Assembly: GCA_034668045.1 (NCBI GenBank) | Contig: JAXDQC010000074.1 | Location: forward strand, 1-57,698 | Length of the DNA: 57,698 bases | Source: Betaproteobacteria bacterium | Lineage (GTDB): Bacteria > Pseudomonadota > Gammaproteobacteria > Burkholderiales > SG8-39 | Direction: 5' to 3' | Shown here: positions 16,398 through 20,349 of the stretch, piece after piece | Numbering within the stretch: the stretch's first letter is position 1 | Layout of the letters: each line of letters begins with the position of its first letter | Notes under the pieces: generated by a model | Told to the model about the DNA's origin: nothing | The model's database searches: none | Seen by the model: only the letters and a program-made list of their open reading frames with translations | Made by a program: the position numbers and the translations under genes

Positions 16398-17395
16398 GGG
16401 TACTCGATGGTTTGGGGCTTGCGCTCCGCGGCGGCGCGGTCGCACGCCAGGCAGATGGCAATGCCGTCGAAGAAGGATTGCGTCACGGCGTCATAGCCAG
16501 GCGCACCGGCAATGGCGTCGAGAAAGGGCCGGATCAGTTCGCCTTTTCCCGCCGGCAGCGCCGCCATCGGCATGCGCTCGGCGGTCTCGCCCGGATCCCG
16601 GCTGCGGTGCATGCGCGGCCCCTGGTCGTCGTAGAGGAATGTCGCGCGCGTGCCGAAAGCGCGCACCACATGCTGGTGCCGGTGCACGCTGCCGAAGTTG
16701 GCCGTGATGCGCGCCACCAGCCCTGAGGCGAATTCCAGCGTCGCGGCGCGAAAATCGTCGTAGCGAAAGCCGGAGCCTTCGGTGGAAATGCGGTTCCCGG
16801 CGGCGCTGACGCGGCTGGGACGCTCGCCGGTGAGCCAGAGCAGCAGGTCGACGAGGTGGATGCCGCCGCCCAGCATCACTGAGTAGTCGCCGATGCCGCT
16901 GCGCCAGCCCTCGGTGATCTTGTGCAGCCGGCCGTACAGGTAATCGCCATCGAACGCATAGAGAGCGCCCAGCTCGCCGTTCTCGATGCTGCGCTTGAGG
17001 GCGAGATAGGCTGGCGCGGTGCGCAGGACGAGATTGCTGCCGATCTTCACGCGTCCGCCGCTTCGCGCCCAGAGCACTTTCAGCTCGGCGAGCTGCGCGC
17101 TCGTCATGCAGAGCGGCTTCTCGACGAAGACGTGCTTTCCCGCCTGCAACGCGTCGCGCGCCTGCTTGAAGTGCGCGTCGTCGAAGGAGGCGATCGAGAC
17201 CACCTGCACCGACGCATCGCTCAGAACGGCTTCGTAGTCGTTGGCCGTGCGGCTGCCGGGAAACTGCGCGGCGAGGCGTTCGGCACGCTGCCGGTCGAGG
17301 TCATGGAGCCAGACGATTTTGGCGCGAGGATCGGCGGCATAAGCCCGCGCATGCTGCTCGCCGACGCCCAGACCGACGACGGCCACGCCGATCAT
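16394..17395 (-). CDS. Gfo/Idh/MocA-family NAD(P)-dependent oxidoreductase
   Basis: Start at ATG 17395 in an ATGA overlap (MIGVAVVGLGVGEQHA...). VFVEKPL motif. Confidence 0.85.
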   Translation of the reverse strand: MIGVAVVGLGVGEQHARAYAADPRAKIVWLHDLDRQRAERLAAQFPGSRTANDYEAVLSDASVQVVSIASFDDAHFKQARDALQAGKHVFVEKPLCMTSAQLAELKVLWARSGGRVKIGSNLVLRTAPAYLALKRSIENGELGALYAFDGDYLYGRLHKITEGWRSGIGDYSVMLGGGIHLVDLLLWLTGERPSRVSAAGNRISTEGSGFRYDDFRAATLEFASGLVARITANFGSVHRHQHVVRAFGTRATFLYDDQGPRMHRSRDPGETAERMPMAALPAGKGELIRPFLDAIAGAPGYDAVTQSFFDGIAICLACDRAAAERKPQTIEYP

Positions 17396-18057
17396 TGGGG
17401 GGCCTCGACGGCGGACGCGAAGCTCGGCACCGATCCAGCGGCGATCAGGGCTTCGACGGCCTGCAGATCCTCCCTCGTGTCGACGGCGAGCGAGCGGCGG
17501 CTGGCGGCGGCTTCGCGGCACGCCACGTTGCGCACGCGGAACCTGCCCGGTGCGCGATACAGAGCGAGCGTCACGTGCTCGCGCTCCTCTGCCGTCCACG
17601 CAGCAGTGTCGATGCCGGCAAAGCACTCGGCGCGGACGACCTCGACGCTTTGTCCGGGTGGAAAGGTGCGCGGCTGCACGTTGGTGATGAGGTCGTATTG
17701 CGGCCCCCGCCGGGCGGCAACCTCGACGACGAGCTCGGGGTCGATGAGCGGGCTGTCGCCGCTGATGCGCACGAACCACTCGCACGGATGCGCGGCGAGG
17801 CACTGCTGGAATCGCTTCGCGACATTCTCCAGGTCGCCGCGAAACAGGGCATGGCCGTGACGCGCGGCGAACGCCGCCAGCAGATCGTCGCTCGAGTCGA
17901 CGCTCGTCGCCAGCACGACGCGCTGCGGACCGAAGGCGCGGCCGCAACGCTCCAGGACATGCGCGATCAGCGGCCGCCCGGCGAGCGGCGCCAGGACTTT
18001 GCCGGGAAAGCGCCGCGAGCTCATGCGCGCCTGGACGAAGATACGGACCGCGCTCAC
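17392..18057 (-). CDS. Cytidylyltransferase-family protein (SpsF/PseF/NeuA-like nucleotide-sugar activating enzyme)
   Basis: GTG start at 18057 (VSAVRIFVQARMSSRRFPGKVLAPLAGRPLI) in a GTGA overlap with the stop of the upstream MarR-like ORF. The longer 290-aa track ORF is rejected. Confidence 0.72.
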   Translation of the reverse strand: MSAVRIFVQARMSSRRFPGKVLAPLAGRPLIAHVLERCGRAFGPQRVVLATSVDSSDDLLAAFAARHGHALFRGDLENVAKRFQQCLAAHPCEWFVRISGDSPLIDPELVVEVAARRGPQYDLITNVQPRTFPPGQSVEVVRAECFAGIDTAAWTAEEREHVTLALYRAPGRFRVRNVACREAAASRRSLAVDTREDLQAVEALIAAGSVPSFASAVEAPQ

Positions 18058-18382
18058 CGCTGCCGGGCCTCGCGCCGCAAGCGGTCGATCTCCTTGCGCA
18101 ACGCCTCGTATTCGGCCGTCTTGCGCTGCAGGAAGTGCAGCGCGTTGCGCGATTTCGCGCTCACGCCGCGCGGCGTCAGCACGTACAGGTAGGCGCGCTT
18201 GTTCTTGCTGTTGCGGAAGTTGTTGGCCTTGACCAGGCCGCGGCCGATCAGCGCCTTCAGGCAATAGTTGACCTTGCCGACGCTGACGCCGAGCTGCTCG
18301 GCGAGCGCGCGCTGCGAGACCTTCGGGTCGCGCTCAAGCTCGCGCAGGATGCGGAAATGCGGCTCTTCCAGAAACCCCCCAT
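18054..18382 (-). CDS. MarR-family EPS-associated transcriptional regulator (TIGR04176-like). The start codon is unresolved: the nearest ATG is out of frame across a G6 tract
   Basis: Absent from the ORF track. The minus-strand frame 18380..18054 reads GGFLEEPHFRILRELERDPKVSQRALAEQLGVSVGKVNYCLKALIGRGLVKANNFRNSKNKRAYLYVLTPRGVSAKSRNALHFLQRKTAEYEALRKEIDRLRREARQR*. It has an in-frame TGA at 18389..18387 and no in-frame ATG, GTG or TTG near the N-terminus. The ATG at 18382..18380 would be in frame only if the C6 run at 18375-18380 held one more C. Confidence 0.75.
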
Positions 18383-18401
18383 TTGTTCAATCGTTGAACA
18401 A
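18383..18401. promoter_or_regulatory. Perfect 8-bp inverted repeat TTGTTCAA-TCG-TTGAACAA in the 41-bp divergent intergenic region; candidate MarR operator
   Basis: Read directly from the sequence: 18383-18390 is the reverse complement of 18394-18401. It abuts the regulator start region and lies 23 bp upstream of the ATG at 18424. Confidence 0.4.
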
Positions 18402-18423
18402 TCTGGCATTATATCCTTGTCGG

Positions 18424-20345
18424 ATGAGGCTTGGCTTCCTGCTCCTGGCCCCCGCCGTCGTCTGTGCCGGACAGGATCTGCACGTCTCTCCCTCGGGCCC
18501 GAGCCTCGAAAGCGTGCTGGAAGCGGCGGCTGAGAAGCCCGGCACCACCGTGTGGATTGCGAGCGGCGTCTATGAGCTGCAGCGCTCCCTGCGGCTCGAC
18601 GCGCGGCACTCGGGCATCGCGCTACGGGCGATGCCCGGCGAAGAAGTGCGGCTCAGCGGCGCGCGCGTCCTGCCGATCGAGAGCTTCGGACGGCCGAGCG
18701 TCGCGCAGCGTGAGCGACTTGACCCGGCGGCGAAGGATCAGGTCGTCGTCATCGACCTCAAGGCGCTCGGCATAAAGGACTTCGGCAGCATCGCCGCCGA
18801 TGGGGCCGAGGTGTTTTTCGATGATCGCCCATTGCCTCTCGCCCGTTGGCCTAACGAAGGCTTCGCGACTGACTTGCTAACCACTGGCGGCGCGCCGTTC
18901 GAGAAGCTCGGATACAAGGGCGACCGACTAGGCGTGTTCACCTATGCAGGAGAACGGCCCGAGCGCTGGCTGCGAGAGAAAGATCTCTGGCTGCACGGTT
19001 ACTGGTTCTGGGACTGGGAGGACATCTACCAGCGCGTCGCCTCGCTTGACCCTCGGAAGAAGCTCATTTACCTGCAGCCGCCCGTCTATTGGAATGGCTT
19101 CCGTGACGGCGCCCGCTATTTCGTGCTCAACGCCCTGAGCGAGCTCGACCAGCCGGGCGAGTGGTATCTCGACCGCGAAGAAAGAATGCTTTACTTATGG
19201 CCGCCGCAACCGCTTGCCGGGGCACGCATCACCCTGTCGATGCTGCGTGACCCCGTGATCGCCATCACGAACGCTTCAAGGGTGGTGATGAGCGGACTGA
19301 CCATCGAAGGGGGCCGCAACAACGGAATCGAGATCGCTGGCGGTGCCGGCAATGTCGTCTCTGGATGCACCGTGCGGAACCTCGGCGGCTGGGGAATTGT
19401 CGTCACCAGCGGCAACAGCCACACCATCGAGCGCTGCCAGCTCTCGCAGCTCGGCCGCGGTGGCGTGCTCCTCGCCGGCGGCGAGCGCACTACCCTCGAG
19501 CCCGGCGCGCATGCGGTCATCGACAGCCGCATCTTCGACTACGCCCGCCTGAAACGCGCCTATGCGCCGGGCGTGAAGCTGGCAGGCGTGGGCCACCGCG
19601 TGCAGAACAACGAGATCTTCGATGCACCGCACATCGCCGTCTGGTTTGCCGGCAACGACCACCTTATCGAGCGCAACGAGATCCGCGGCGTCTGCCGCGA
19701 GACCGGCGATGCCGGCGCGATCTACGCTGGGCGGGACTGGACCGAGCGCGGAACCGTGATCCGCCACAACTACATCCACGACGTCTCCGGGCTGGGCGAG
19801 CACGGCTGCCAGGCGATCTATCTCGACGACATGGCAAGCGGCATCGTCGTCACCGGCAACATCACGCGCGGCAGCCGGCGCGGCATTCTCATGGGGGGCG
19901 GACGGGACAATGTCGTCGAAGACAACGTGCTCATGGACTGCACCGAATCGGTGGTCTTCGATAACCGCGGCCTGAAATCGTACCGTGAAGCCGTCAAGCC
20001 GCCCGACGGCGTCATGGTGCGGCACCTGGCGCAGATGCCGGTCGATCGCCCGCCGTGGTCGACGCGCCATCCCGAGCTGCAGCGCTTGCTTGCCGACAAT
20101 CCCGGCTCGCCGAAGAACAACGTCATCCGGCGCAACATCGCCTGGCGCTGCCCGCCGCCGAAGCTCGCGCGGGAGGTGGTGCGCTTCGGCCGCGTCGAGG
20201 ACAACGAGCCATGGTTCGTCGATCCCGGCATCATCGCCGCCGACGGCAAGCTCGATCTGCCAGCCGGCGCACCGATCGTGCGCGGCGAGCCGGCGCTGCG
20301 AAATTTCCCGGCCGATTCCATCGGCCCGCGCCCGGCGGCGGCGCG

Positions 20346-20349
<4 letters not shown>
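18424..20349 (+). CDS. Secreted right-handed parallel beta-helix repeat protein (polysaccharide lyase/hydrolase-like)
   Basis: Start at ATG 18424 gives the signal peptide MRLGFLLLAPAVVCAGQD. PbH1-like repeats follow (NNGIEIAGGAGNVVSGCTVRNLGGWGIVVTSGNSHTIERCQL...). The longer track ORF starting at 18268 would overlap the regulator and is rejected. Confidence 0.72.

What the first reader, a model, noticed from the sequence alone, without database searches (positions are those of the whole stretch)
18054..18423. Unannotated MarR-type EPS regulator whose only nearby ATG is frame-shifted across a G6/C6 homopolymer
The six-frame track misses a 108-codon minus-strand frame that strongly resembles the EPS-associated MarR family (HFRILRELERDPKVSQRALAEQLGVSVGKVNYCLKALIGRGLVKANNFRNSKNKRAYLYVLTPRG).
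- Its stop forms a GTGA overlap with the first biosynthetic gene, so it heads the 18-gene operon.
- The frame has an upstream in-frame TGA at 18389..18387 and no in-frame ATG, GTG or TTG.
- The ATG at 18382..18380 would give MGGFLEEPHF... only if the C6 run at 18375-18380 were C7.
- The options are a sequencing or assembly indel, a genuine frameshift (regulator off), slipped-strand phase variation of the master regulator, or initiation at the in-frame CTG at 18371..18369.
Basis: seen in the sequence. Interest (0 to 1): 0.62.

Follow-up and report, generated by a model that had tools for sequence, protein, structure and literature searches.

The report
MarR regulator starting at rare CTG codon
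The "frame-shifted" polysaccharide regulator gene is most likely intact: the run of six G is its ribosome-binding site, and translation probably starts at a rare CTG codon just after it, as it does at ACG or CTG in most close relatives.

Summary
The sequence features are all present as described. A minus-strand frame (18386..18057) encodes a TIGR04176 EPS-associated MarR protein. An in-frame TGA closes the frame upstream, there is no ATG/GTG/TTG ahead of the DNA-binding domain, and an out-of-frame ATG abuts a G6 run.

Comparison with 17 close relatives (74-90% identity) changes the reading. The stretch between a conserved palindrome (TGTTCAA-n3-TTGAACA) and the first conserved codon varies in length by non-multiples of three, so it is non-coding. 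The window has the commonest spacing (19 nt).

The G run sits where a Shine-Dalgarno should be. The codon 3-5 nt (mostly 4) after it is ACG (11 loci), CTG (3, including the window), GTG (2), ATG (1) or GCG (1). Nine loci have no canonical start at all, yet codons 2-17 are under the same purifying selection as the rest of the gene. The ATG is missing in half of the relatives.

Independent contigs from two sequencing runs carry the same G6.

Verdict: an intact 105-aa regulator that starts at near-cognate CTG 18371. It is not a frameshift, an assembly error or phase variation. There is no direct translation evidence. The conserved ACG/CTG starts are the moderately interesting part.

The parts
18054..18371 (-). 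Proposed coding sequence of the EPS-associated MarR regulator: 105 codons from CTG 18371..18369 to TGA 18056..18054.
   Evidence: TIGR04176 scores 149.7 bits against a cutoff of 88, and the profile is 105 positions long. Homologs of 105 aa start with ATG/GTG at exactly this codon. Codons 2-17 have pN/pS 0.19, against 0.18 for the rest of the gene.
18369..18371 (-). Proposed near-cognate start codon CTG.
   Evidence: The homologous codon in 18 clade loci is ACG x11, CTG x3, GTG x2, ATG x1 and GCG x1. L173 has ATG here, with the same upstream in-frame TGA. This is an inference; there are no protein data.
18375..18380 (-). The G6 run, read as the Shine-Dalgarno sequence at -9..-4 of the CTG. It is not coding sequence.
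   Evidence: Relatives carry GGAGG, GGGAGG, GGGGG or GAGGGG at the same place, 3-5 nt (mostly 4) before the start-position codon. In this genome SD-like 4-mers peak at -12..-9 before the first ATG of 1207 long ORFs.
18380..18382 (-). Out-of-frame ATG, fortuitous and probably not used.
   Evidence: The ATG is absent in L012-L017, L089, L170 and L173 (for example ATAAGGGGG, AAGCGGGG). It is out of frame in L009, L010, L011 and L171. No G-rich SD lies upstream of it.
18384..18400 (.). Perfect palindrome TGTTCAA-cga-TTGAACA, a likely operator. It contains the in-frame TGA (18389..18387) and the third-frame TTG.
   Evidence: It is conserved in all 17 clade relatives and in many distant family members upstream of their ATG. 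The strict form occurs only once in the 3.96-Mb assembly. Binding by this protein is inferred.
18408..18413 (-). TATAAT, a -10-like box for the regulator/operon promoter.
   Evidence: T(A/C/G)TAAT is conserved 7-14 nt upstream of the palindrome in most relatives, whatever the upstream gene (GCTAAA in L014; none evident in L172). No matching -35 was found, and the consensus scan found no full sigma-70 site, so this is inferred only.
17392..18057 (-). First biosynthetic gene, a CTP_transf_3 cytidylyltransferase. Its GTG start overlaps the regulator's TGA.
   Evidence: Pfam PF02348, E 5.5e-22. All 14 clade loci examined have an ATGA or GTGA stop/start overlap at this junction.
18424..20349 (+). 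Divergent gene for a secreted right-handed beta-helix protein. Its ATG lies 52 nt from the proposed CTG.
   Evidence: Pfam Beta_helix, E 1e-22. The same divergent neighbour is seen in L169 and, judging by the reverse-strand ATG, in L009.

Best explanation
The gene is an intact EPS-associated MarR-family regulator of 105 residues.

Proposed layout of its 5' end:
- The transcript probably starts just downstream of a conserved -10-like box (18413..18408).
- The short leader carries a conserved palindrome, which is a likely operator and possibly the protein's own binding site.
- The G6 run serves as the Shine-Dalgarno sequence.
- Translation starts at the near-cognate CTG at 18371..18369, three T after the G run, and is read by initiator tRNA as Met.

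The ATG next to the G run and the TTG inside the palindrome are chance features of the untranslated leader.

A weak start codon behind a strong ribosome-binding site would keep the regulator scarce relative to the enzymes encoded on the same polycistronic mRNA. The regulator's stop overlaps the start of the next gene.

What is shown and what is inferred:
- Shown: the anatomy, its conservation, the non-coding nature of the leader, and purifying selection on codons 2-17.
- Inferred: that CTG is the initiation codon, where the promoter lies, that the palindrome is the operator, and the throttling role.
For: 1. The sequence is real. Logan contigs of two runs from different samples and studies (X1 depth 6.7, X2 depth 6.0) match the window over 18224..18900 with 0 differences and 0 gaps.

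2. The leader is non-coding. The distance from TTGAAC to the first conserved codon across 18 clade loci is 18 nt (4 loci), 19 nt (8, including the window), 20 nt (3), 22 nt (2) and 29 nt (1). All three frames therefore occur, and the in-frame TGA is the commonest state, seen in 10 of 18 loci.

3. Nine of the 18 loci have no in-frame ATG/GTG/TTG before the conserved domain. Only about 1 of 150 more distant family loci lacks one.

4. The codon just before the conserved EE..HF is ACG x11, CTG x3, GTG x2, ATG x1 and GCG x1. All but the GCG are ATG or one base away from it. L173 has ATG at this position at the same 19-nt distance and with the same in-frame TGA, which fixes the start position by homology.

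5. Codons 2-17 have pN/pS 0.19, against 0.18 for codons 18-100. The TIGR04176, MarR and HTH_24 profiles begin at these residues.

6. Codon 18 (Val) is GTC/GTT/ATC in most loci, so the 88-aa database calls are artefacts.

7. A G-rich SD (GGAGG, GGGAGG, GGGGG) sits 3-5 nt (mostly 4) before every ACG/CTG codon. The one ATG locus has no SD.

8. This genome uses SD motifs, peaking at -12..-9; the G run occupies -9..-4 of the CTG.

9. In E. coli reporters, CUG initiates at 1-2% of AUG. ACG falls in the 0.1-1% group and gave an N-terminal Met by mass spectrometry (bioRxiv 10.1101/063800).

10. A soil metatranscriptome contig 96% identical to the window covers 18183..18379 without a gap.
Against: - There are no protein, ribosome-profiling or transcription-start data.
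- The runs are held only as contigs, so minority tract lengths cannot be seen.
- The invariance of ACG (11 of 11) is not diagnostic by itself, because several ordinary codons in the gene are equally invariant.
- L170 has GCG at the start position. GCG is not a near-cognate codon. That locus does have an in-frame ATG eight codons upstream.
- The SD-to-start spacing (3-5 nt after the G run) is on the short side of this genome's distribution.
- No full sigma-70 promoter was detected.
- Near-cognate starts are weak in E. coli, and their efficiency in this uncultured organism is unknown.
Confidence: 0.72

Rival explanations
1. This strain carries a genuine inactivating frameshift. The regulator is a pseudogene, and the operon is therefore deregulated or silent.
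For: The nearest relative by leader sequence, L169, has one more base between the ATG and the first conserved codon, and its ATG is in frame as MGGSTEEPHF. No canonical start exists in the window.
Against: The window has the commonest spacing of the clade (19 nt). Eight relatives share the state with no canonical start. The ATG is absent in half of the clade. The coding frame has no other lesion over 105 codons, and the conserved stop/start overlap is kept.
Confidence: 0.08
2. Translation starts at another non-canonical site. Candidates are the ATC of codon 8 (RIL) or another codon between the TGA and the CTG.
For: ATC/ATT/ATA are near-cognate codons, and this Ile codon is conserved.
Against: The Ile codon lies about 24 nt from the SD. 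Codons 2-7 show coding-type conservation and belong to the family profile. In L012 and L089 a TAA lies only four codons before the ACG, which leaves no other near-cognate codon upstream.
Confidence: 0.07
3. The G6 is a sequencing or assembly indel, and the true tract is G7 with the ATG as the start.
For: The genome is a fragmented metagenome-assembled genome of 230 contigs. Homopolymers are classic sites of indel error.
Against: Contigs built independently from two runs in two studies give the identical sequence. A 96%-identical RNA-library contig shows the same TTTCTG and at least five G. Many relatives from other assemblies are also 'out of frame'.
Confidence: 0.04
4. The G tract undergoes slipped-strand phase variation. 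G7 would switch the ATG on and G5 would switch the TTG on, so G6 is the OFF state of a master regulator.
For: Both +1 and -1 changes would bring a canonical start into frame. G-run length differs among relatives, from 3 to 6.
Against: Six G is short for a contingency tract. Neither the ATG nor the TTG has an SD. The tract is interrupted in relatives (GGGAGGG, GGAGG). Two samples show the same length. The OFF-like state is the majority state across the clade.
Confidence: 0.03
5. Translation initiates at the out-of-frame ATG and reaches the MarR frame by programmed ribosomal frameshifting or transcriptional slippage on the G run.
For: A slippery homopolymer lies directly after an ATG.
Against: The ATG is not conserved and has no SD. 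There is no conserved stimulatory structure; the fold z-score is -0.15. Relatives without the ATG have the same problem and the same ACG/CTG solution.
Confidence: 0.03

Closest known systems
TIGR04176 / NCBIfam MarR family EPS-associated transcriptional regulator
   Same: It scores 149.7 bits against a cutoff of 88 and aligns over profile positions 3-104 of 105. It has a single winged-helix domain plus a C-terminal helix. It sits at the head of a polysaccharide or nonulosonic-acid gene cluster.
   Different: In this clade the start codon is mostly ACG or CTG instead of ATG. No family member appears to have been studied experimentally: one paper in the library merely mentions the name, and there is no close solved structure.
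Near-cognate start codons in bacteria: AUU of E. coli infC and pcnB (from my own knowledge), and CTG/ATT/ATC/ATA annotated as rare starts
   Same: A weak, one-base-off start codon sits behind a normal ribosome-binding site on a gene whose product is needed at a low, controlled level. It is conserved among relatives.
   Different: The codon here is CTG in the window and ACG in most relatives. ACG is not among the start codons of NCBI table 11. No link to IF3 autoregulation is shown. All the evidence is comparative.
Homopolymer phase-variable (contingency) genes, such as poly-G tracts in Neisseria, Haemophilus and Campylobacter surface-structure genes (from my own knowledge)
   Same: A G run lies near the 5' end of a gene that controls a surface polysaccharide.
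   Different: The tract is only 6 nt long. It lies in the untranslated leader as the SD, is interrupted in relatives, and has the same length in two samples.

Membership tests
TIGR04176 MarR_EPS | Score above the curated NCBIfam cutoff over nearly the full profile. | tested here: met
   149.7 bits against a cutoff of 88, covering profile positions 3-104 of 105.
TIGR04176 MarR_EPS | Small (about 105 aa) protein with a single winged-helix MarR-type domain. | tested here: met
   It is 105 codons long from the CTG. Pfam HTH_24, MarR_2, MarR and HTH_27 all match.
TIGR04176 MarR_EPS | Encoded next to exopolysaccharide or surface-glycan biosynthesis genes. | tested here: met
   The downstream genes are a cytidylyltransferase, a Gfo/Idh/MocA oxidoreductase, a DegT aminotransferase, an epimerase, a GNAT, NeuB and AsnB. 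Relatives are followed by CTP_transf_3, UDP-glucose dehydrogenase or a GHMP kinase.
Gene with a near-cognate (non-ATG/GTG/TTG) start codon | No canonical in-frame start between the upstream stop and the conserved N-terminal domain. | tested here: met
   This holds for the window and 8 of 17 relatives.
Gene with a near-cognate (non-ATG/GTG/TTG) start codon | A near-cognate codon at a suitable distance behind a Shine-Dalgarno, homologous to a canonical start in relatives. | tested here: met
   The layout is G6, then TTT, then CTG. The same position holds ATG in L173 and GTG in L017 and L176. SD use in this genome is shown.
Gene with a near-cognate (non-ATG/GTG/TTG) start codon | Protein N-terminus or ribosome initiation mapped to that codon. 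| not testable with these tools
   The organism is uncultured and no proteome or ribosome profiling exists.
Homopolymer phase-variable (contingency) locus | The tract lies in coding sequence, or in a promoter spacer, so that its length sets ON or OFF. | tested here: not met
   The tract lies in a leader whose length varies out of frame among relatives, and it acts as the SD.
Homopolymer phase-variable (contingency) locus | Tract length is polymorphic within populations or between isolates of one strain. | tested here: inconclusive
   Two runs both give G6. Only contigs are held, not reads, so minority variants cannot be seen.

The most novel reading that the evidence does not exclude
ACG is not listed as a start codon in NCBI table 11 and, as far as I could find, is undocumented as a natural bacterial start. 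In this reading, ACG is the conserved native initiation codon of a clade of soil-bacterial EPS regulators and interchanges with CTG, GTG and ATG.

The weak codon is paired with a strong G-rich Shine-Dalgarno sequence at a nearly fixed spacing of about 4 nt, while the one ATG member lacks an SD. Start-codon strength and SD strength would therefore co-evolve as a translational throttle. That throttle would set the regulator-to-enzyme ratio on one polycistronic mRNA and might respond to IF3.
Probability: 0.5. Interest if true: 0.55.

Novelty: new member of a known kind. Interest (0 to 1): 0.4.

Why it matters
- **Annotation.** Gene finders either skip this regulator or give its relatives arbitrary N-termini. 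Database entries of 88, 105, 109, 111-112 and 118 aa all come from the same architecture. The head gene of a large surface-glycan operon is therefore missed or mis-called in soil metagenomes.
- **Biology.** A clade-wide ACG or CTG start behind a strong ribosome-binding site would be a clean natural example of start-codon choice setting the dose of a regulator in bacteria.
- **Testability.** A small reporter series in a laboratory strain would test it.
- **Method.** An 'out-of-frame ATG next to a homopolymer' can be a ribosome-binding site rather than a frameshift.

Tried and rejected
- **Promoter and terminator scan of 18000-18700.** It found no full sigma-70 site and no terminator. The -10 box is therefore supported only by conservation.
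- **RNA fold of the leader.** It is no more stable than shuffled sequences, z -0.15. I propose no riboswitch or frameshift stimulator.
- **ACG invariance as a test of start function.** I rejected this as diagnostic, because GGC, CGC, AGC and GCG codons elsewhere in the gene are equally invariant.
- **Alternative 88-aa start at the Val of KVSQR.** Rejected, because that codon is GTC/GTT/ATC in most loci.
- **Raw-read heterogeneity.** It could not be assessed, because X1 and X2 are held only as Logan contigs.
- **Look-ups without DNA.** Four of twelve contig look-ups returned no DNA: P0001, P0034, P0024 and P0038.
- **16S 3' end.** The only anti-SD-like match in the assembly is not an rRNA end, so I showed SD use statistically instead.
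- **Kinship of the L089 genome to this one.** The tool did not report it.
- **PDB sequence search.** The only hit is a distant LrpA, E 0.002.
- **Literature on ACG starts.** The 40 best-ranked of 143 papers all concern eukaryotes, viruses or organelles.

Full report
**1. Observation**

The minus strand of 18389..18054 reads *TNGGFLEEPHFRILRELERDPKVSQRALAEQLGVSVGK...EARQR*.
- The in-frame TGA is at 18389..18387.
- The next in-frame ATG/GTG/TTG is the GTG at 18182. It would give only 42 aa and no HTH.
- The ATG at 18382..18380 is in another frame and gives MGGFWKSRISAS....
- That ATG abuts a run of six G at 18380..18375.
- CTG at 18371..18369 is in frame.
- The stop overlaps the GTG of the next gene as GTGA at 18057..18054.
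- The translated frame scores 149.7 bits against TIGR04176 MarR_EPS (cutoff 88), aligned to profile positions 3-104 of 105. It also matches the HTH_24, MarR_2 and MarR Pfam families.

Minor corrections:
- The frame has 110 sense codons, not 108.
- A second ATG (18409) shares the wrong frame.
- A TTG (18390..18388) lies in the third frame.

**2. Is the sequence right?**

Two public soil-metagenome runs from different samples and studies hold this stretch. Their independently built Logan contigs match the window with 0 differences and 0 gaps. X1 covers 17911..18900 at depth 6.7, and X2 covers 18224..18900 at depth 6.0.

A soil metatranscriptome contig 96% identical to the window covers 18183..18379 without a gap.

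Only contigs are available, not reads. Minority tract lengths therefore cannot be excluded.

**3. What the relatives show**

A protein search found many close homologs (74-94% identity). Their called N-termini are strikingly inconsistent:
- 88 aa (VSQR...)
- 105 aa (MEEQHF...)
- 109 aa (MGGPTEE...)
- 111-112 aa (LNKWGVFTEE...)
- 118 aa (MPDCSTIEQMGGSTEE...)

I collected the DNA of 17 such relatives from metagenome contigs, one species-representative genome and exact-protein look-ups. I then lined up their 5' regions.

Every locus has the same architecture:
- a -10-like T(A/C/G)TAAT (most loci);
- 7-14 nt later, a palindrome (T/C)GTTCAA-n3-TTGAAC;
- then an A-rich stretch and a G-rich run (GGAGG, GGGAGG, GGGGG, GAGGGG);
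- then 3-5 mostly pyrimidine bases (4 in most loci);
- then one codon followed by the conserved (E/D)(E/D)xHF RILRELERDP.

The distance from TTGAAC to that codon is 18 nt (4 loci), 19 nt (8 loci, including the window), 20 nt (3), 22 nt (2) and 29 nt (1).
- All three reading frames therefore occur, so this stretch is not coding.
- The commonest state puts the TGA of TTGAAC in frame (10 of 18 loci), exactly as in the window.
- The ATG beside the G run is missing in 9 of the 17 relatives (for example ATAAGGGGG, AAGCGGGG, ATACGGGGG).
- Where the ATG is present, it is out of frame in four more loci.

The window is therefore not frame-shifted relative to its clade.

**4. Where translation starts**

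The codon just before the conserved EE is distributed as follows:

| Codon | Loci |
|---|---|
| ACG | 11 |
| CTG | 3 (window, L009, L172) |
| GTG | 2 (L017, L176) |
| ATG | 1 (L173) |
| GCG | 1 (L170) |

- L173 fixes the position. It has ATG at the same 19-nt distance, with the same in-frame TGA six codons upstream and no other possible start.
- Nine loci have neither ATG, GTG nor TTG anywhere between the upstream stop and the domain.
- In L012 and L089 a TAA lies only four codons before the ACG.
- Among about 150 more distant family members, essentially all have ATG/GTG/TTG one to eight codons upstream of the aligned position. The single exception (L108) has CTG where its near-twin L039 has TTG.

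The N-terminal codons are translated:
- pN/pS over codons 2-17 is 0.19, against 0.18 for codons 18-100, across all pairs of 15 of these loci.
- The family profiles begin at these residues.

The internal Val codon that some gene finders use as a start (the 88-aa calls) is GTC, GTT or ATC in most loci.

The genome itself uses Shine-Dalgarno sequences. GGAG/GAGG/AGGA/GGGG 4-mers peak at -12..-9 before the first ATG of 1207 long, high-GC3 ORFs. The G run occupies -9..-4 of the CTG. No such motif precedes the 18382 ATG.

The simplest reading is that the G6 run is the ribosome-binding site and that CTG (ACG in most relatives) is the start codon.

In E. coli reporters, CUG initiates at 1-2% of AUG. 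ACG belongs to the 0.1-1% group, and its product carried an N-terminal Met (bioRxiv 10.1101/063800).

The one ATG locus has no G-rich SD, whereas all 14 ACG/CTG loci have one. This looks like compensation, but it rests on a single ATG example.

**5. Caveats**

- There is no direct evidence of translation.
- ACG being invariant (11 of 11) is not diagnostic, because other codons in the gene are as invariant.
- L170 has GCG at the start position. It does carry an in-frame ATG in the palindrome spacer.
- No -35 element or full sigma-70 site was found.
- The leader RNA is not unusually structured.

**6. Context and mechanism**

The regulator's stop overlaps the start of the next gene in all 14 clade loci examined (ATGA or GTGA).

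In the window the following genes are a CTP_transf_3 cytidylyltransferase, a Gfo/Idh/MocA oxidoreductase, a DegT aminotransferase, an SDR epimerase, a GNAT, NeuB and AsnB. This is a nonulosonic-acid-type glycan operon. A secreted beta-helix protein is encoded divergently, 52 nt away.

The palindrome is conserved far beyond the clade, always just upstream of the family's gene. Its strict form occurs once in the 3.96-Mb assembly. It is the obvious candidate operator for a winged-helix dimer. Binding has not been tested.

I infer that the weak start codon keeps the regulator scarce relative to the enzymes translated from the same mRNA.

**7. Comparison with known things and verdict**

The protein is a clear member of TIGR04176. 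That family seems never to have been studied experimentally, and it has no close solved structure.

The start-codon arrangement works like known near-cognate starts, such as the AUU of infC and pcnB in E. coli (from my own knowledge). CTG is an accepted rare start in table 11. ACG is not, and the top-ranked 40 of 143 papers mentioning ACG starts all concern eukaryotes, viruses or organelles.

Earlier unchecked notes of this scan report similar ACG/CTG cases in other genomes.

The frameshift, assembly-error and phase-variation readings are not supported. My confidence in it is about 0.7.

Noticed in passing
window 18384-18400: The perfect palindrome TGTTCAA-cga-TTGAACA is conserved upstream of TIGR04176 genes, both in the clade and in many distant Gamma/Betaproteobacteria-labelled MAGs. 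Examples are L003, L005, L029, L053, L106, L112 and L116. Its strict form occurs only once in this assembly.
   Followed up: partly
L173:230-303: The only clade member with ATG at the start position has no G-rich Shine-Dalgarno (AACAAACACGCCCTGC ATG). All ACG/CTG members have one. This may be compensation between start-codon strength and SD strength.
   Followed up: partly
L170:340-425: This relative has GCG (Ala) at the start position. It also has an in-frame ATG inside the palindrome spacer (CAATGGTTGAAC). It may have switched to another start, or it may be a dead allele.
   Followed up: no
L108 and L039, just upstream of the match: In a more distant pair of Lysobacterales-type loci, one has CTG where the near-identical other has TTG, and it has no other canonical start. 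This looks like an independent CTG start in the same family.
   Followed up: no
window 18372-18423: Only 52 nt separate the proposed CTG from the ATG of the divergent beta-helix gene (18424). That ATG has no recognisable Shine-Dalgarno (CATTATATCCTTGTCGG ATG). Both promoters must overlap the palindrome or lie inside coding sequence.
   Followed up: no
G000 contig C172:1717-1730: A palindrome-like GTTCATCATTGAAC lies in an AT-rich, apparently intergenic stretch. It may be a second site for a related regulator.
   Followed up: no
proteins P0001-P0042: Public gene calls for this clade have at least five different N-termini (88, 105, 109, 111-112 and 118 aa). Which one is called depends on which chance ATG or TTG of the leader happens to be in frame. 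This is a systematic annotation artefact.
   Followed up: yes
window 18369, runs X4 and X26: Contigs of relatives that break off at 18369 continue upstream with ...GGGGGGTTGTC ACG (DNA run X4) and ...CCC ACG (RNA run X26). These are further sightings of the ACG type, one of them in a metatranscriptome.
   Followed up: no
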